Part shown: positions 16,365 through 35,553 of the stretch, piece by piece
Layout: every line of letters begins with the position of its first letter
Numbering within the stretch: position 1 is the stretch's first letter
From: Escherichia phage PECP20
DNA: 64,000 nt
Sequence record: OQ873415.1
Reading direction: 5' to 3' (one strand)
Position numbers and translations under genes: made by a program
The notes under the pieces: generated by a model
Seen by the model: only the letters and a program-made list of their open reading frames with translations
The model's database searches: none
What the model was told of the DNA's origin: nothing

Positions 16365-17354
16365 TTATTTATAGTAAGAATTATGATTTTCGAGATAGAC
16401 TTGCTCAAGGAAATCATCCCAGAAACTCATATCTACTTTTTGTTGCATACCATTCTTGGCAGCTTGTTCTGACGCATGTTCAACTTGGTCAACGATATCT
16501 TCTAGGAATTCTTGTACAGTTTTAAACGTATGTTTACCAAGCTTAACATCGAGAATAAATGGAGCATCCTGAAGTGGGTAAACCAGGTCGCCGGTTTTGT
16601 AAATTTCCAATAATTGAAGTCCACCACGACATGCATGACTCAATGCTTTCCAGTCAATACCTTCGTTAGCTTCTGCTTTACGAGCACGTTCACCATAGTT
16701 CTCTTCCAGTTTAACCAGGATAGCATTGAACTCTTTATTGGTTAACGTGTCTTGGAATTTACGGTCTAACAGACTATAGAATGTTTGCTTACCTGTTTTC
16801 TCGTTTTCGGTTTCAACCCATGAAGCAAATTCACCTACAGGTAGAACATTCTTCATATGTGATAAACGAATTACTGCACCATTATCAAAGTATTGTCCCC
16901 ATTCATTAGAACGTTTAAGGGCTTGACGAAGAACAGCCAGTCGAGAACCCTTGACACCGTATTTAGAAGCTTGCTTACGGACGTACCCTAAATAAGATTT
17001 CATGTTAGTGGTATAGAAACGAGACCTGTTATCTTGAATATACTTCCATACATCAGGCAAATCAGATTTAACTACTAGACTTGGTGGAGTATGAAGCATA
17101 TCTAATGCGACGGTTTCACCATCTGCAGCTAGTTTAAAGAAATATTTGAGACTATATAACTCATGGTCTACGTCGTCTTTTGTGTTCTTAGAAGATGTGT
17201 TATTCGTGTTCTTGCTCATATGTTCTTTAACGTTACCGGTCAAAATATCACGAGCATGAGGGACATAAATTTCTTTAAAATCGACGTCAGATTCAGGAGT
17301 AGACGTTCCATAAAGGTGGCTACCAAAGTAGCTTTTCATAATTGTTTTCATCAT
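16365..17354 (-). CDS. Predicted nucleotidyltransferase-fold protein (Pol-beta-like GS...DVD motif), 329 aa
   Basis: N-terminal YFGSHLYGTSTPESDVDF matches the hG[GS]x(9-13)DhD signature of the minimal nucleotidyltransferase fold; rest helical. Confidence 0.55.
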   Translation of the reverse strand: MMKTIMKSYFGSHLYGTSTPESDVDFKEIYVPHARDILTGNVKEHMSKNTNNTSSKNTKDDVDHELYSLKYFFKLAADGETVALDMLHTPPSLVVKSDLPDVWKYIQDNRSRFYTTNMKSYLGYVRKQASKYGVKGSRLAVLRQALKRSNEWGQYFDNGAVIRLSHMKNVLPVGEFASWVETENEKTGKQTFYSLLDRKFQDTLTNKEFNAILVKLEENYGERARKAEANEGIDWKALSHACRGGLQLLEIYKTGDLVYPLQDAPFILDVKLGKHTFKTVQEFLEDIVDQVEHASEQAAKNGMQQKVDMSFWDDFLEQVYLENHNSYYK

Positions 17355-27045: not shown

Positions 27046-27271
27046 ATCGGTCCCATGATTTGGCCATCAATTCGGACATAAATTCTTCAATGCGCGTTTC
27101 TTTAGATGGACTTTCACTATTAGAGACCGCAAGTTTGTAATCTGCAATAGGACAGAACATATCAAGGTCCATATTAAGATCGTCTTTGATTTTTTCTTCT
27201 GACACATCTTTATCATACGTGTACAGATAACTATCGCATGATTCTGATTTAATGTAAATTGCTATACTCAT
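27035..27271 (-). CDS. Hypothetical acidic protein (~78 aa)
   Basis: ORF track; internal ATG with AGGAAT ribosome-binding site. Confidence 0.4.
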   Translation of the reverse strand: MSIAIYIKSESCDSYLYTYDKDVSEEKIKDDLNMDLDMFCPIADYKLAVSNSESPSKETRIEEFMSELMAKSWDRYDE

Positions 27272-27759
27272 CTCAAATTCCTGCATTCGGTAATAAAACG
27301 TTCAACTTCGTTATTCTTGGCCTTTATCTTGTCTTTACGTTCCTGTAAACTACTTTTAACAAGATTAATAATGATGGCGGCGGTACCGCCGCCAATGATG
27401 CCACCAACAACACTTACGATACTAGATGCTAATAAGATAGCAATAATATCAACAAAACCGAAAGAACTCACCTTAGTACTGAAAAACCATACCGACGGTA
27501 CAAATATAATCCATCCTGTTATCCATTGGCACTTATTGAAAAACTTTTCAAGCTCAGCTTGAGTTGTTCGTATTACTTCATCGATAGGTTGATATCCATT
27601 AATGTATCTGTTCACGATAATACCTGCTGGCTGGTCGATTTTAAATTCTTGGCAAATACGTTTCACTAAGTAGGATGGACATCCTGTCCAATCCACTGAA
27701 TAGTACGAAATACCTTCGTTGCCATCGTCTATATTAGACCAATATGTTTTGTTAATCAT
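27268..27759 (-). CDS. Membrane protein, C-terminal ...ERFITECRNLR (FIxECR-tail family member 1)
   Basis: Transmembrane segments plus conserved C-terminal motif shared with ORFs at 28447, 31113, 31451 and 31815. Confidence 0.5.
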   Translation of the reverse strand: MINKTYWSNIDDGNEGISYYSVDWTGCPSYLVKRICQEFKIDQPAGIIVNRYINGYQPIDEVIRTTQAELEKFFNKCQWITGWIIFVPSVWFFSTKVSSFGFVDIIAILLASSIVSVVGGIIGGGTAAIIINLVKSSLQERKDKIKAKNNEVERFITECRNLR

Positions 27760-28446: not shown

Positions 28447-28752
28447 TTATTTTCCTCGACATTCTTTAATGAAATTTTCTAGATTGGTAGATTCAATAGC
28501 TTTTTTACGAGCTTCTGCGTGTTCTTCTTCAGACAATTTACATTTATAATTGACCCAGACGTTATGGTCGAAACTAGTCGTGGCATATAATAACAATGCT
28601 CCAACGAATAGCAAAAACGGCGATAAGAATACAAAACCAGGAACACCATCCATACTGTAAGCCTTTTGTAATACTGCAACAGAAAGAGCTGCGTAAAAAA
28701 GTGATACAAATATTGTTAAAAGACCAATTCGGTTGGTTTCGCCTAATTTCAT
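28447..28752 (-). CDS. Membrane protein, C-terminal ...ENFIKECRGK (FIxECR-tail family member 2)
   Basis: Two transmembrane helices plus conserved tail. Confidence 0.5.
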   Translation of the reverse strand: MKLGETNRIGLLTIFVSLFYAALSVAVLQKAYSMDGVPGFVFLSPFLLFVGALLLYATTSFDHNVWVNYKCKLSEEEHAEARKKAIESTNLENFIKECRGK

Positions 28753-29091: not shown

Positions 29092-30048
29092 TTATTTGAA
29101 AGGTTTTACCATATGAAAGTTTTGTTTGAAACGCTTGACGTAATCGTCGTGTCCTAAGCTTTGGTACATACTTACTACTTTGTTATAATTTTCCCAAGCG
29201 AACTCACGGAACCATCCTGATGTGATTGATGTACAGACCTTTTCAAGGGCCATCATAAAACTATCACGTGGATGGATTTCAAAGTTATTAGGAATCTGAG
29301 AACGTTCTAACGCTAGTACACATGATTCTTCGTATACGCCGGCCAATTTGACCATTTCTGGTAATGATTCGAACTTCTCGCGTGAGGTCATGACTTCAGA
29401 ACCATCTTTCATATAAAATGTATACGCTGGACGGTCTGTTAGTGCAATGGCTTCATGAATAGTATCATGGTCATATGTATAGATGTCATCTTTAAAGAAC
29501 GCACTTTTAGAAGTGTCAAGAACTGGGTGAGCATAATTCAAGGTTTCTTTCTGGCGTTTCAGCATAATTTCAGTAAGTTCATCGTTCAGTGTAACACCTT
29601 TACCACGAAGATACTGAATATGGTTCATAGTCTTTAAAAAGAATGGATTATTTTTCTTGAAACGATGAGACATCTTAATTGCAAGACATATCTCAGGAGT
29701 TGCCCAGTAAAACCCGTTCAAACGGTCTTTAGTCAAATTTTTCTTGGCGTATTTTAAAAGGTCATAAGAAGACGTGAAATCTTCAGGAGTGAGTTCACCG
29801 ACTAGTTCGCGAACGTTAGTGATAGCCGGAACGATGTATGCTTCAAAATGAGTTTCGCGTCCATTATGGAAGCATTTGAAAACTTGGACATCAGGGTTAT
29901 CTTGGTGAACATATACACCCATCATTTGATTTTTGAATGCATTCCAAGAACCTTGGTCCGCAATAAAGTCCCAATCACTATTTTTAATAGCGCTAGAATC
30001 AATAAGACCGTGATAGTGAAGTGCACGAGAACCAATAACTAACATCAT
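29092..30048 (-). CDS. Hypothetical protein (318 aa); weak nucleotidyltransferase-like N-terminal motif (IGSRALHYHG...SDWDF)
   Basis: GS ... DxD spacing is 17 residues, longer than canonical, so the fold call is tentative. Confidence 0.5.
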   Translation of the reverse strand: MMLVIGSRALHYHGLIDSSAIKNSDWDFIADQGSWNAFKNQMMGVYVHQDNPDVQVFKCFHNGRETHFEAYIVPAITNVRELVGELTPEDFTSSYDLLKYAKKNLTKDRLNGFYWATPEICLAIKMSHRFKKNNPFFLKTMNHIQYLRGKGVTLNDELTEIMLKRQKETLNYAHPVLDTSKSAFFKDDIYTYDHDTIHEAIALTDRPAYTFYMKDGSEVMTSREKFESLPEMVKLAGVYEESCVLALERSQIPNNFEIHPRDSFMMALEKVCTSITSGWFREFAWENYNKVVSMYQSLGHDDYVKRFKQNFHMVKPFK

Positions 30049-30076: not shown

Positions 30077-30328
30077 TTAAATTTCACGACATGCGATATT
30101 ATATTCATCCCAGAGGTCATCATGTGAAGCCTCTACCAATGGAACGATTGTACCGTTTATGTCTTCATTATAAGGGCAAATTGTACAGTGCGCATCTTCG
30201 AATCGGATGCCTTTGTGTTCAGATTTTTTATAACGCATATCGAATATCTTTGCAAACTTTTCACGAGTAATGGTTTTACCAACCACTTTGGTTCCGATAC
30301 TTTCGTAATAAATCATTGTGGACTCCAT
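30077..30328 (-). CDS. Hypothetical protein (83 aa)
   Basis: ORF track. Confidence 0.45.
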   Translation of the reverse strand: MESTMIYYESIGTKVVGKTITREKFAKIFDMRYKKSEHKGIRFEDAHCTICPYNEDINGTIVPLVEASHDDLWDEYNIACREI

Positions 30329-30344
30329 TTGTTTTGATAGGACT

Positions 30345-30374
30345 ACTATAACATAGCCCTATCTTGTTGTAAAC
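30345..30374 (-). promoter_or_regulatory. T4-type early promoter (GTTTAC ... TATAGT) with inverted repeat ATAGGGCTA/TAGTCCTAT
   Basis: Minus-strand read. Confidence 0.5.
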
Positions 30375-30378
30375 TGTT

Positions 30379-30576
30379 TTAGCAAGAATAACTAGATGAT
30401 ACCCAGCCTTGAACAGTGATACTATTGTGGGATAATGAGATCGCGTCCTGGAGATTCAGACCTGCGTTATCTTCAATCCATAATGTAACTTCTTCGCGTT
30501 CTTCTGCTGCAATTTGGAACAGGTTTTCCAGAGCAGCTACTGCCGTACGTACAGCACAATCTAATTCACGAGACAT
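30379..30576 (-). CDS. Small acidic protein, C-terminal ...GWVSSSYSC (SSSxxC-tail family member 1)
   Basis: C-terminal motif shared with the two genes upstream. Confidence 0.5.
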   Translation of the reverse strand: MSRELDCAVRTAVAALENLFQIAAEEREEVTLWIEDNAGLNLQDAISLSHNSITVQGWVSSSYSC

Positions 30577-30585
30577 ATTGTTTCC

Positions 30586-30813
30586 TTAGCAAGACATAGA
30601 GGAAGAGAACCAGAAACCTTTGCCTTCCGGAATTCCATAATCGTTACGGATCCAGCCATATTCATCATATTCTGAACTGGTCGCCGGAATATATCGGTTA
30701 AGTCCTTCAGCATACACATGAAAATACTCGCCGGTTTTATCAGCTAATTGTTGGCCTTCACAGATTAGTGCTCGAATTTGGTCTTCAATTTCTTTAACGG
30801 TTTTAGTGGTCAT
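30586..30813 (-). CDS. Small acidic protein, C-terminal ...GFWFSSSMSC (SSSxxC-tail family member 2)
   Basis: Conserved tail; junction TGCTAAGGAAACAATATG. Confidence 0.5.
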   Translation of the reverse strand: MTTKTVKEIEDQIRALICEGQQLADKTGEYFHVYAEGLNRYIPATSSEYDEYGWIRNDYGIPEGKGFWFSSSMSC

Positions 30814-30822
30814 TTTATTTCC

Positions 30823-31116
30823 TTAACATATTTGAGAAGAGGAGATCCATACACCGGAAGTAACGATACCATTTTCGTCAACTTCACCGCCATAGTTTTC
30901 AATTTCATCGCGCATCCAGCGACTACATTCATAACCAACAGGATAGTAAGTACGACCTGAACCATATTCACCTACATCAAATGAAACACCATACTTATCT
31001 GCGATAATAGTAGCTTCATTCTCGATATGGTCTTGAGCACGAAGAAGTTTGCTGATTGCTTCTTCTGCAGATTTAGCGTCATTGTATTCAGGGATTACGA
31101 TTTCAATTTTACTCAT
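30823..31116 (-). CDS. Small acidic protein, C-terminal ...GVWISSSQIC (SSSxxC-tail family member 3)
   Basis: Conserved tail; junction TGTTAAGGAAATAAAATG. Confidence 0.5.
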   Translation of the reverse strand: MSKIEIVIPEYNDAKSAEEAISKLLRAQDHIENEATIIADKYGVSFDVGEYGSGRTYYPVGYECSRWMRDEIENYGGEVDENGIVTSGVWISSSQIC

Positions 31117-31472
31117 TTTCTACATTCCTTAATAAAGTTTTCGATTGTTTCATTTTCACGTTTAGCTAGGAGTTCATTATAACTAATCATTTGAGAAGCG
31201 TAAACCTTTTTATTTTTCTTGTTGTGGTTTATAAAATCGTAGTAAAAATAGACTACAGTACAAAATGATGCGATGGATGCAAAGGCTTGGGTATACCGTA
31301 AGTCCTGCCATTGGTCTGTGAATCCACCAGTGTTCCCTATAAATCCTAACACAACGCCGTCAATAAGAAATCCAACTAATCCAAAGGCAAATCCCATGCC
31401 AATACTCATAATAAAAATTAGAATGTTCTCACCAAGAGAAGGCCATACGGTTAAGAGTTGAGGCTTTTGCAT
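31113..31472 (-). CDS. Membrane protein, C-terminal ...ENFIKECRK (FIxECR-tail family member 3)
   Basis: Transmembrane segments plus conserved tail; stop overlaps the next start. Confidence 0.5.
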   Translation of the reverse strand: MQKPQLLTVWPSLGENILIFIMSIGMGFAFGLVGFLIDGVVLGFIGNTGGFTDQWQDLRYTQAFASIASFCTVVYFYYDFINHNKKNKKVYASQMISYNELLAKRENETIENFIKECRK

Positions 31473-31846
31473 CTTATTTCCTTAACGAATTCCATAGCTT
31501 CTTCATATTCATACTTTTTAACAGCTTCATCATACTGAGCTTGGGCTTTTGCGCACTGAACTTTCCATTCTCTTAATCGGGCTCTGTGATGACGGCCTTG
31601 GTGCCAATATCCTACCCAATTAATAGGCATTAATAAAAACGGTACAATAAGTGGTGCGACGAACATTAATGAAAATGCTGCATCAGACGATATAACTTCA
31701 CTAGAATCTAAAACAGCTCCTATAATCATAAAGATTAAAAATGCTAAAGCTAAAATAGGACCAAATAATACTTCATACGGGATTAATTTACGTTTGTATT
31801 CGTAGGCCCAGGGCTTACTTGGCATGTATAGGGTTGGCTTTGACAT
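31451..31846 (-). CDS. Membrane protein, C-terminal ...EFVKEIRCKSLNS (FIxECR-like tail, family member 4)
   Basis: Transmembrane segments; related tail. Confidence 0.45.
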   Translation of the reverse strand: MSKPTLYMPSKPWAYEYKRKLIPYEVLFGPILALAFLIFMIIGAVLDSSEVISSDAAFSLMFVAPLIVPFLLMPINWVGYWHQGRHHRARLREWKVQCAKAQAQYDEAVKKYEYEEAMEFVKEIRCKSLNS

Positions 31847-32438
31847 ATTCTCTACATTCCATAATAAATTGCTCAAGGATTAAATTGTTAGTGAAATTAG
31901 GACTAACAACCATAGTTTCATAAAGCGCATCAATAGCACTTAAAGCATCAACTCTTTTAAGCAAAGGCTTGCCTTCATACATAGTTTCAGAATCGATGAT
32001 TAACGTAAAGTAATATTTTTTATTATCGACTAGAACTTCTGTATCGATATAAAACATATTAGACCTCAGAAGCTTATCTCTAAAACCATAATAATCTTCA
32101 GAGCGTTCGCTGATATATTCCCATTCAGTGTTTAAACAACAAACAGACCACGTAGGAGCAACGAAATCAGTGAATCTAATATCATGGTCTGCAACTAGTT
32201 TAGCAATAGCTCCGATATCATGAATCATAATACCTGGGGCTAATAAAGATTTTCTGCTATGGCTAGCCGTTTTCTCGGTGGTCTCATAAGAAGACGACCA
32301 GTACCATTTACGTCCGGTTGCAACATATCGTAATGAATCAACTAAAGACGTAGGTGGATTTACCTTATCTCGGAACTCTTCGAACATTGAGTCAATATCA
32401 TTATTTTGGTTTCGCATGTTAGCTCCTTTATTATCCAA
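31815..32438 (-). CDS. Hypothetical protein (207 aa) with internal ...EQFIMECREYVK motif
   Basis: ORF track; start uncertain. Confidence 0.45.
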   Translation of the reverse strand: MDNKGANMRNQNNDIDSMFEEFRDKVNPPTSLVDSLRYVATGRKWYWSSSYETTEKTASHSRKSLLAPGIMIHDIGAIAKLVADHDIRFTDFVAPTWSVCCLNTEWEYISERSEDYYGFRDKLLRSNMFYIDTEVLVDNKKYYFTLIIDSETMYEGKPLLKRVDALSAIDALYETMVVSPNFTNNLILEQFIMECREYVKANPIHAK

Positions 32439-35396: not shown

Positions 35397-35473
35397 TGGT
35401 CGAGACAGAAGGATTCTAACCTTCAACCTACGGATTAGAAGTCCGTTGCTCCATACAATTGAGCTATGCCTCG
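35397..35473 (-). tRNA. tRNA-Arg (anticodon TCT), CCA encoded
   Basis: Hand fold: acceptor CGAGGCA/TGTCTCG, D-arm GCTC...GAGC, anticodon stem ACGGA/TCCGT with loop CTTCTAA, T-stem GAAGG/CCTTC, discriminator A plus CCA. Confidence 0.75.
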
Positions 35474-35479
35474 AATATA

Positions 35480-35553
35480 TGGCCCAGACCAGATTCGAAC
35501 TGGTAACCTTTCCCTTATGAGGGGACTGCTGCTAACCATTGAGCTACAGGGCC
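35480..35553 (-). tRNA. tRNA with anticodon CAT (Met, or Ile if lysidine-modified)
   Basis: Hand fold: acceptor GGCCCTG/CTGGGCC (one U-U mismatch), anticodon loop CTCATAA, T-arm ACCAG-TTCGAAT-CTGGT; no encoded CCA. Confidence 0.7.

What the first reader, a model, noticed from the sequence alone, without database searches (positions are those of the whole stretch)
29092..30048. Second, weaker nucleotidyltransferase-like candidate
The N-terminus MMLVIGSRALHYHGLIDSSAIKNSDWDFIAD has GS and DxD residues in nucleotidyltransferase-like order but with non-canonical spacing. If it is a real nucleotidyltransferase, the phage encodes two unrelated ones in accessory regions.
Basis: inference. Interest (0 to 1): 0.35.

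Follow-up and report, generated by a model that had tools for sequence, protein, structure and literature searches.

The report
Phage nucleotidyltransferase linked to tagged small proteins
The gene very probably does encode a nucleotidyltransferase-type enzyme of unknown function, and across many unrelated phages it sits just downstream of genes for small acidic proteins that all end in the same tag (Trp-x-Ser-Ser-Ser-x-x-Cys), which suggests a previously undescribed enzyme-plus-substrate pair.

Summary
The ORF is real: window 29092-30048, minus strand, 318 aa, the orthologue of RB69ORF134c. Pfam sees only DUF7277 + DUF7275, but a confident AlphaFold model (pLDDT 92) has nucleotidyltransferase-fold proteins as its best PDB matches (5uvd, MenT1, TM1012, Cid1, ASFV Pol X).

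The GS...DxD...E triad is essentially invariant in 145 representatives of a family of about 1580 clusters that is almost confined to viruses. The long GS-to-DxD spacing (17 residues) is a loop of variable length (10-26 in the family). The C-terminal 200-residue helical domain is even more conserved and has no structural neighbour in the PDB.

The window's other nucleotidyltransferase is an RlaP/T4 NrdC.11-type protein at 16365-17354. It belongs to a different family, though its family is named as part of the same Pol-beta superfamily.

New here: the gene is tightly linked to upstream, same-strand genes for small acidic proteins ending W-x-S-S-S-x-x-C-stop. There are three in the window (30379-31116). 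With a generalised motif, 225 of 232 such ORFs lie upstream on the same strand, in 24 of 33 lineages. Conversely, 19 of 26 tail ORFs found without using the enzyme as bait have it downstream, against 0 of 49 chance matches.

I infer that the enzyme modifies serines in these tails. This is untested.

The parts
29092..30048 (-). Gene for the 318-aa two-domain protein (RB69ORF134c orthologue), long-form member of the DUF7277-DUF7275 family
   Evidence: ORF; Pfam DUF7277 at aa 2-101 (E 9e-28) and DUF7275 at aa 120-305 (E 3e-79); PHROG 2141; RB69 annotation
29746..30048 (-). N-terminal nucleotidyltransferase-fold domain (aa 1-101) with catalytic-type residues G6, S7, D25, D27 and E69
   Evidence: AF2 model and its secondary structure; Foldseek PDB hits to NTase-fold proteins; residue invariance in 145 representatives
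29095..29733 (-). C-terminal all-helical domain (aa 106-318, DUF7275). K125, S127, H128, K139, H194, D195, H198, E240, E241, E248 and R249 are invariant even in members at 27-29% identity
   Evidence: Conservation; separate model with pLDDT 91.8; no PDB structural neighbour, best E 0.29
30379..30576 (-). Tail-protein gene 1 (65 aa, pI 4.18), ending ...GWVSSSYSC-stop
   Evidence: PHROG 4882, unknown function
30586..30813 (-). Tail-protein gene 2 (75 aa, pI 4.64), ending ...GFWFSSSMSC-stop
   Evidence: PHROG 899, unknown function
30823..31116 (-). Tail-protein gene 3 (97 aa, pI 4.33), ending ...GVWISSSQIC-stop; also carries the YGSGRTYYP motif
   Evidence: PHROG 899, unknown function
30077..30328 (-). 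83-aa ORF between the tail genes and the enzyme gene (PHROG 3723, unknown function); whether it belongs to the module is uncertain
30345..30373 (-). T4-early-type promoter-like site (TTTACA, 17 nt, TATAGT, with TG) upstream of the 83-aa ORF and the enzyme gene; a consensus match only

Best explanation
Shown here: the gene encodes a two-domain protein. Its N-terminal ~100 residues adopt the DNA-polymerase-beta-type nucleotidyltransferase fold, with a fully conserved GS / DxD / E active-site set. Its C-terminal ~200 residues form a very conserved helical domain of no known fold. The family is large and almost confined to viruses. In its long-form branch the gene is linked, in both directions of the test, to one to four upstream same-strand genes for small (median 84 aa) acidic proteins. 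The N-terminal parts of these proteins vary, but their extreme C-terminus is G-x-W-x-[S/A]-S-S-x-x-C-stop.

Inferred: the enzyme binds an NTP through two metal ions held by D25, D27 and E69. It transfers the nucleotidyl group (or another nucleotide-derived group) to a serine hydroxyl in the tail of these co-encoded proteins. The basic, invariant residues of the C-terminal domain would hold the acidic tail and complete the active site. In this view the tail is a common modification tag on a set of phage proteins with different N-terminal parts.

The gene probably belongs to the early, accessory gene set. This rests on its position in the e-to-tRNA region and on promoter-like sites.
For: Fold and active site: model pLDDT 92.2; NTase-fold proteins head the PDB matches; G6, S7, D25, D27 and E69 conserved in 144-145 of 145 representatives at 36-56% identity; G6, D25 and D27 still invariant at 27-29% identity; weak Pfam hits to NTase families in some members.

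Linkage, forward test: in 1.40 Mb around 107 enzyme genes, 160 ORFs end in the near-strict motif. Of these, 155 are upstream on the same strand, 1 downstream and 4 opposite; median gap 820 bp. With the generalised motif W-x(1-3)-S-[ST]-x(0-2)-C$ the counts are 225 upstream against 7 elsewhere (74 against 0.5-0.9 per 1000 ORF segments), in 89 of 107 loci and 24 of 33 lineages; lineage sign test p = 1.5e-6.

In the window: only three such ORFs in 64 kb, all immediately upstream of the gene, against an expectation of 1e-4.

Linkage, reverse test: a scan of viral contigs for the tail pattern alone found 26 ORF-ending matches with at least 3 kb held downstream. Nineteen of them have the enzyme gene downstream on the same strand, against 0 of 49 chance non-ORF matches.

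No other neighbour family recurs in more than 5 of 33 lineages, so the adjacency has survived complete turnover of the surrounding genes. T4 lacks both the enzyme and the tails in the 100 kb scanned.

The tail proteins are acidic (median pI 4.35), while the C-terminal domain keeps many invariant K/R/H residues.

Precedents for NTase-type enzymes acting on a serine of a small protein or peptide: the PsmN enzyme of the lasso peptide pseudomycoidin (PMC9266682); and CitX/MdcG holo-ACP synthases (my own knowledge; one family member gave a weak MdcG hit).
Against: No biochemical data exist for any member, and gene linkage does not say which partner acts on which. The short-form branch (Gordonia, Streptomyces and Vibrio phages) keeps the same invariant residues but has no tail genes upstream, so the shared chemistry cannot depend on tails everywhere. 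Nine of 33 lineages show no tail ORF within the sequence held. TM-scores to solved NTases are low (0.30-0.49), and no sequence-level match to any solved structure was found. I could not inspect model coordinates, so I have not shown that the C-terminal invariant residues face the NTase triad. The closest functionally characterised structural match, MenT1, acts on tRNA and not on protein. Lineages are related by descent, so the counts are not fully independent.
Confidence: 0.5

Rival explanations
1. It is an RNA 3'-end (tRNA) nucleotidyltransferase, either repairing or blocking tRNA acceptor ends as MenT toxins and CCA-adding enzymes do. The tail proteins would be unrelated to its substrate.
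For: The best functionally characterised structural match is MenT1, which adds nucleotides to tRNA 3' ends. Other matches are RNA-specific terminal transferases (Cid1, CutA, an A-adding enzyme, OAS1). Ligase, T4-type Rnl1 or PNKP genes lie within 7 kb in 9 of 33 lineages, and near the short form in Streptomyces phage Wakanda. The gene lies in the e-to-tRNA region, about 5 kb from tRNA genes.
Against: There is no Pfam match to AbiEii/MenT, PolyA_pol or RlaP. The family has a near-neutral pI (median 6.2) and an acidic N-domain, which is not what I would expect of an RNA-binding enzyme. The repair-gene neighbourhood appears in a minority of lineages and has no background rate. This reading leaves the very strong tail-gene linkage unexplained.
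Confidence: 0.2
2. The tail proteins are not substrates. They are regulators or inhibitors whose C-terminal tail plugs the active site (antitoxin-like, as the small MenA1 protein blocks MenT1), and the enzyme modifies a host molecule.
For: The gene order (small protein genes upstream of an NTase gene) is the usual antitoxin-toxin order, and MenA1 inhibits MenT1 by covering its active site. The short-form enzymes work without tails, as expected if tails are accessory.
Against: One to four paralogous copies per locus, with unrelated N-terminal parts and only the last 8-10 residues conserved, looks like a shared modification tag and not a dedicated inhibitor. Invariant Ser-Ser and a terminal Cys are typical of residues that undergo chemistry. 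A lytic phage has little obvious need to neutralise its own enzyme.
Confidence: 0.15
3. It nucleotidylates a small molecule or a nucleotide (as in antibiotic-type adenylylation, or making or capping a signalling nucleotide), for example as a counter-defence enzyme. The tail-gene linkage would be inherited synteny without a functional meaning.
For: The top structural hit, 5uvd, is an uncharacterised NTase-like protein, and two-lobed NTases with a helical second domain include antibiotic nucleotidyltransferases (my own knowledge). The distribution is virus-restricted, in accessory regions next to NUDIX, NAMPT, ADP-ribosyltransferase and Sir2-like genes.
Against: The linkage holds in both directions and across lineages that share no other neighbour, which inherited synteny alone explains poorly. 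There is no match to any antibiotic-NTase or cyclic-nucleotide synthase family.
Confidence: 0.1

Closest known systems
MenT / AbiEii (DUF1814) nucleotidyltransferase toxins, e.g. M. tuberculosis MenT1 (PDB 8AN4)
   Same: Two-lobed build: an N-terminal beta-sheet NTase lobe with metal-binding aspartates and a C-terminal helical lobe that supplies further active-site residues (K137 and D152 in MenT1). MenT1 is the second-best structural match (prob 1.00, 184 aligned columns). A small protein gene lies upstream.
   Different: No sequence-family match (1 of 145 members hits AbiEii, at E 0.021). Here GS and DxD are separated by a helix and a loop, whereas MenT1's T39, D41 and D43 are adjacent. The helical domain is about 200 residues with no structural neighbour, not a four-helix bundle. 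The family is viral, not a chromosomal toxin-antitoxin pair. The upstream proteins are multi-copy and share only a C-terminal tag.
Pfam DUF7277 + DUF7275 / PHROG 2141 (RB69ORF134c family)
   Same: The window protein is a full-length member (E 9e-28 and 3e-79; PHROG E 1.7e-150).
   Different: Nothing; but these are names only. No function is recorded, no paper mentions either DUF, and most records say 'hypothetical protein'.
RlaP family (PF10127), T4 NrdC.11: the other nucleotidyltransferase in this window (16365-17354)
   Same: The RlaP family is named a DNA polymerase beta family, so the superfamily is the same. The motif order GS...DxD is the same, and both are encoded in accessory early regions of the same phage.
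   Different: No detectable sequence or profile similarity (hhalign probability 0.1). RlaP has the canonical 10-residue spacing. T4 has NrdC.11 but lacks the DUF7277-DUF7275 gene.
NTase-type enzymes that modify a serine of a small carrier protein or peptide: CitX/MdcG holo-ACP synthases; PsmN of the pseudomycoidin lasso-peptide cluster
   Same: An NTase-type enzyme encoded next to its small protein or peptide substrate, acting on a serine (PsmN: PMC9266682; CitX/MdcG: my own knowledge). This is the closest analogy for how the module may work.
   Different: No family membership (one weak MdcG hit, E 0.062). The tag here is C-terminal, W-x-S-S-S-x-x-C, with an invariant terminal cysteine. The substrates are several phage proteins. 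The activity is not shown.

Membership tests
DNA polymerase beta-type nucleotidyltransferase superfamily | Alpha/beta core fold with a mixed beta-sheet | tested here: met
   Model pLDDT 92.2. Foldseek: 5uvd E 5.9e-4, MenT1 E 1.7e-3, both prob 1.00; then TM1012, Cid1, Pol X, CutA, Pol mu and OAS1. TM-scores are modest (0.30-0.49).
DNA polymerase beta-type nucleotidyltransferase superfamily | hG[GS] motif between the first strand and the following helix | tested here: met
   I5-G6-S7 at the end of strand 2-5 and the start of helix 6-12. G is 145/145; S is 141/145 plus 3 G.
DNA polymerase beta-type nucleotidyltransferase superfamily | [DE]h[DE]h on the next strand, 9-13 residues after GS | tested here: met
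   D25-W-D27-F on strand 25-31. D25 is 144 D + 1 E; D27 is 145/145. The spacing is 17 here and 10-26 in the family: the motif is met, the canonical spacing is met only by some members.
DNA polymerase beta-type nucleotidyltransferase superfamily | Third carboxylate (h[DE]h) on a later strand | tested here: met
   F68-E69-A70 on strand 64-73; 129 E + 15 D of 145. In short-form members this region is replaced by a short strand with an acidic residue, whose alignment is uncertain.
DNA polymerase beta-type nucleotidyltransferase superfamily | Metal-dependent transfer of a nucleotidyl group from an NTP to a hydroxyl acceptor | not testable with these tools
   Requires biochemistry.
MenT / AbiEii (DUF1814) toxins | Match to the family profile (PF08843), which includes its C-terminal motifs III and IV | tested here: not met
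   No hit for the window protein; 1 of 145 members at E 0.021, below threshold.
MenT / AbiEii (DUF1814) toxins | Cognate antitoxin gene (AbiEi/MenA type) next to the toxin gene | tested here: not met
   The upstream genes have no Pfam family. The downstream small ORFs are unrelated between lineages.
RlaP (PF10127) | Match to the family profile | tested here: not met
   No Pfam hit. hhalign of the family profile against the window's own RlaP protein gives probability 0.1.
Class II CCA-adding / poly(A) polymerase family (PF01743) | Match to the family profile | tested here: not met
   No hit at E <= 10 for the window protein, and the family is not among the 25 best-represented families at E <= 1 for the 145 members.
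HD-domain phosphohydrolases (considered for the C-terminal domain because of H128...H194-D195...H198) | HD-domain fold or profile match | tested here: not met
   No Pfam HD hit. The domain-only model has no PDB neighbour (best E 0.29). hhalign against a phage HD_4 protein gives probability 0.3.
Pfam DUF7277 + DUF7275 / PHROG 2141 | Full-length match to both profiles, in this order | tested here: met
   the same architecture in all 145 representatives and in 7 distant phage members.

The most novel reading that the evidence does not exclude
The enzyme and the tail proteins form a phage-encoded protein-maturation system of a new kind. The nucleotidyltransferase domain would activate a tail serine by O-nucleotidylylation. 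The conserved His/Asp/Glu/Lys/Arg-rich C-terminal domain would then eliminate the nucleotide to give dehydroalanine and/or guide the invariant C-terminal cysteine onto it, closing a thioether (lanthionine-like) ring. The invariant S(-4)/S(-3)...C(0) spacing is the i+3/i+4 spacing of lanthionine and aminovinyl-cysteine rings (my own knowledge of lanthipeptides). That would be a new route to serine dehydration, alongside phosphorylation and glutamylation, acting on whole small proteins in lytic phages.
Probability: 0.08. Interest if true: 0.9.

Novelty: new variant of a known kind. Interest (0 to 1): 0.62.

Why it matters
The family is one of the larger uncharacterised enzyme families of tailed phages. 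It has about 1580 clusters at 50% identity and occurs in 733 deposited phage genomes from Escherichia, Acinetobacter, Aeromonas, Pseudomonas, Vibrio, Gordonia and Streptomyces hosts. Structural relatives also turn up among predicted giant-virus proteins. It is nearly absent from cellular genomes.

Assigning the fold turns 'hypothetical protein' into a testable enzyme. The linkage to proteins with a shared C-terminal W-x-S-S-S-x-x-C tag goes further, because it names candidate substrates and a candidate modification site. The function can therefore be tested directly by co-expression and mass spectrometry.

If the tails are modified, this would be a virus-encoded post-translational tagging system acting on a variable set of small early proteins. 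Such proteins are plausible host-takeover or counter-defence effectors.

Tried and rejected
- **Sequence searches against solved structures.** A search with the single sequence and one with a 38-sequence profile found nothing relevant.
- **HD-type phosphohydrolase for the C-terminal domain** (suggested by H128, H194-D195 and H198). Rejected: no Pfam hit, no PDB structural neighbour for the domain-only model (best E 0.29), and no profile similarity to a phage HD_4 protein.
- **Conserved downstream partner.** The small ORFs abutting the 3' end in eight lineages are unrelated to one another.
- **Membership of MenT/AbiEii, RlaP or CCA-adding families.** Not supported.
- **RNA-repair neighbourhood as a functional clue.** Ligase, Rnl1 or PNKP lie within 7 kb in 9 of 33 lineages, Metallophos in 4 and NAMPT in 5. 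This is a minority without a background rate, so I kept it only as support for a rival.
- **Tail genes next to short-form enzymes.** None found in Gordonia, Streptomyces or Vibrio phages.
- **Literature.** No paper mentions DUF7275, DUF7277 or RB69ORF134c, or an NTase linked to C-terminal-cysteine proteins in phages.
- **Tests I could not do.** Model coordinates are not exposed, so I could not test whether the C-terminal invariant residues surround the NTase triad. Only the first 100 kb of T4 was scanned.

Full report
**1. The observation**

The ORF is at window 29092-30048 on the minus strand. It sits in a long run of minus-strand genes of an RB69-type T4-like phage. The region is more than 99% identical to Mosigvirus genomes such as FP43, SHSML-52-1 and ATK47. 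The RB69 orthologue is RB69ORF134c, annotated 'hypothetical protein'.

In RB69 the gene lies in a block (ORF132c-139c) inserted between the homologues of T4 e.2 and e.3. In T4 itself e.2 abuts e.3.

The bare GS...DxD motif is weak evidence on its own. The strict form occurs in 3 of 78 large ORFs of the window, and in the first 60 residues of 0.15% of shuffles of this protein. Two of those three ORFs, however, are the two nucleotidyltransferase candidates.

**2. What the protein is**

Pfam recognises only two domains of unknown function: DUF7277 (aa 2-101) and DUF7275 (aa 120-305). PHROGs gives family 2141, unknown function. There is no sequence match to any solved structure.

The family is large. 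There are 2246 hits in the clustered protein database and 1580 clusters at 50% identity in the exhaustive profile search, almost all about 300 aa and matching end to end. It occurs in 733 deposited phage genomes across many host genera. Structural relatives also appear among predicted giant-virus proteins. In 185,579 cellular species genomes it gave only 8 loci, all on metagenome-assembled contigs.

An AlphaFold model built on 38 homologues is confident (pLDDT 92.2, pTM 0.86). Nucleotidyltransferase-fold proteins are its best PDB matches: 5uvd and the tRNA-nucleotidyltransferase toxin MenT1 (both probability 1.00), then TM1012, Cid1, ASFV Pol X, CutA, Pol mu and OAS1. These are interleaved with low-probability noise.

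The motif residues sit where the fold expects them: strand 2-5, G6-S7 at the helix start, D25/D27 on strand 25-31, and a third carboxylate, E69, on strand 64-73. Conservation in 145 representatives at 36-56% identity is as follows:

| Position | Residues observed |
|---|---|
| G6 | 145 G |
| S7 | 141 S, 3 G |
| D25 | 144 D, 1 E |
| D27 | 145 D |
| E69 | 129 E, 15 D |

G6, D25 and D27 remain invariant in actinophage and vibriophage members at 27-29% identity.

A few members give weak Pfam hits to NTase families (DUF6036, DUF4269, AbiEii, MdcG). Some annotators already write 'nucleotidyltransferase'.

**3. The C-terminal domain**

This domain is more conserved than the catalytic one. K125, S127, H128, K139, H194, D195, H198, E240, E241, E248 and R249 are invariant at every depth sampled. 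Modelled alone it is again confident (pLDDT 91.8), but it has no structural neighbour in the PDB (best E 0.29).

I considered an HD-type metal-dependent hydrolase and rejected it. By analogy with MenT1, whose helical lobe supplies K137 and D152 to the active site (PMC10435456), I infer that this domain completes the active site and binds the acceptor. I could not check this because model coordinates are not exposed.

**4. The other nucleotidyltransferase**

Window 16365-17354 (-) matches RlaP, 'RNA repair pathway DNA polymerase beta family' (E 5.7e-13). By position and annotation, its T4 counterpart appears to be nrdC.11, annotated 'nucleotidyltransferase'. It shows no profile similarity to the present family. 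The phage therefore encodes two different families of one superfamily.

**5. Neighbourhood: the unexpected result**

I collected 107 loci encoding relatives, grouped into 33 lineages with less than 60% enzyme identity between them, and clustered all neighbouring ORFs. No annotated family recurs in more than 5 lineages. The recurrent ones were NAMPT, Metallophos, ATP-dependent ligases, Rnl1 and PNKP.

The most recurrent neighbour was a set of small proteins whose N-terminal parts differ but whose extreme C-terminus reads W-x-S-S-S-x-x-C-stop. The window has three in tandem: 30379-30576, 30586-30813 and 30823-31116. They lie directly upstream of an 83-aa ORF and the enzyme gene. They are the only such ORFs in 64 kb, against an expectation of 1e-4.

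Across the 1.40 Mb of loci, 160 ORFs end in the near-strict motif:

| Position relative to the enzyme gene | ORFs |
|---|---|
| Upstream, same strand | 155 |
| Downstream, same strand | 1 |
| Opposite strand | 4 |

The median gap is 820 bp. The consensus is G-x-W-x-[S/A]-S-S-x-x-C, with W, S(-4), S(-3) and C essentially invariant.

Lineages that seemed to lack tails carry variants such as W-N-P-S-S-E-S-C or W-E-S-S-G-C. With a generalised motif the counts are 225 upstream against 7 elsewhere, about a hundred-fold rate difference. This holds in 89 of 107 loci and 24 of 33 lineages, with a lineage sign test of p = 1.5e-6.

For the reverse test I scanned the viral contig collection for the tail DNA pattern alone. 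Of 26 matches that end a real ORF and have at least 3 kb held downstream, 19 have the enzyme gene downstream on the same strand. None of 49 chance non-ORF matches do.

T4 lacks both the enzyme and the tails in the 100 kb scanned. The tail proteins have no Pfam family and fall in PHROG 'unknown function' groups, mainly 899. They are small (median 84 aa) and acidic (median pI 4.35). No paper in the library describes them or the enzyme.

**6. Limits of the linkage**

Short-form enzymes of Gordonia, Streptomyces and Vibrio phages are 248-263 aa and lack the beta-hairpin region that carries E69. They have no tail genes upstream. The linkage therefore belongs to the long-form branch, which includes the window protein. 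Lineages are related by descent, so the counts are not independent. Even so, the adjacency persists while every other neighbour has turned over.

**7. Most likely mechanism**

Shown: the fold, the conserved catalytic set, and the two-way gene linkage. Inferred: the enzyme uses two metal ions held by D25, D27 and E69 to transfer a nucleotidyl (or other nucleotide-derived) group to a serine hydroxyl in the tail of the co-encoded proteins, with the basic invariant residues of the C-terminal domain gripping the acidic tail.

Several copies with different bodies but one invariant tail look like substrates sharing a tag rather than inhibitors. Precedents for NTase-type enzymes acting on a serine of a small protein or peptide are PsmN (PMC9266682) and CitX/MdcG (my own knowledge).

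I give this reading a confidence of 0.5. The rivals are an RNA/tRNA 3'-end transferase (0.2), tails acting as regulators or inhibitors (0.15), and a small-molecule transferase with merely inherited synteny (0.1).

The most novel reading not excluded is that serine nucleotidylylation leads to elimination and closure of a thioether ring by the terminal cysteine. The S-x-x-C and S-x-x-x-C spacing matches lanthionine and aminovinyl-cysteine rings (my own knowledge). I put this at about 0.08.

**8. Verdict**

As a fold assignment it is a modest result: an uncharacterised family of a very well-known superfamily, already guessed by a few annotators. The linked W-x-S-S-S-x-x-C tail proteins and the structurally orphan, highly conserved second domain make it more interesting. 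I found no description of such an enzyme-plus-tag module, and it is directly testable.

Noticed in passing
window 16365-17354 (-): A 329-aa protein of the RlaP family ('RNA repair pathway DNA polymerase beta family', PF10127, E 5.7e-13) with a canonical GS-x10-SDVD motif. By position and annotation, T4's counterpart appears to be nrdC.11, annotated 'nucleotidyltransferase'.
   Followed up: partly
window 27268-27759, 28447-28752, 31113-31472, 31451-31846, 31815-32417 (all -): Five ORFs flanking the enzyme and tail cluster end in a shared C-terminal motif, ...[FV]-[IV]-x-E-[CI]-R... (for example ENFIKECRGK, ENFIKECRK, ERFITECRNLR). Three of them were annotated as transmembrane proteins in a related phage, and they correspond in position to T4 e.2-e.5. 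They form a second paralogous set defined by a C-terminal motif, which I cannot explain.
   Followed up: partly
L010 444-1367 and 8716-10134; L018 3286-6056 and 11149-12561; L233 1-653 and 2290-3162: In several distant lineages (jumbo-phage-like contigs, Streptomyces phage Wakanda) the enzyme gene lies within a few kb of T4-type RNA ligase 1, polynucleotide kinase-phosphatase and an ATP-dependent ligase. This holds for 9 of 33 lineages. There is no background rate, so it is a lead only.
   Followed up: partly
L005 7551-9326; L232 2566-5519 (Vibrio phage K460): Nicotinamide phosphoribosyltransferase recurs near the enzyme gene in 5 of 33 lineages. In K460 a phosphatase and a ribose-phosphate pyrophosphokinase lie beside it. 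This looks like an NAD-salvage gene set.
   Followed up: no
L023 1309-2100, L024 1351-2097, L025 1318-2103, L028 1156-1917: There is a short-form branch of the family (248-263 aa; Gordonia, Streptomyces and Vibrio phages). It lacks the beta-hairpin region carrying E69 and has no tail-protein genes upstream, yet it keeps every invariant residue of the C-terminal domain.
   Followed up: yes
window 30373-30345, 29078-29050, 28809-28781 (-): Three T4-early-type promoter-like sites (TTTACA or TGTACA, 17 nt, TATAGT or TACTAT, each with an upstream TG) lie in minus-strand intergenic gaps around the gene. The overall promoter-like count is not above shuffled expectation (14 against 10.3 +/- 3.4).
   Followed up: no
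window 30823-31116 (-) and many tail proteins in other loci: About 44% of the tail proteins (88 of 199) carry a second motif, YG-x-G (often extended, e.g. YGSGRTYYP), roughly 30-40 residues before the C-terminal tag.
   Followed up: partly
window 35397-35473 and 35480-35553 (-): tRNA-Arg(TCT) and tRNA-Met(CAT) genes lie about 5 kb from the enzyme gene. A related phage record annotates an extra tRNA-Lys in this region that ARAGORN did not report in the window.
   Followed up: no
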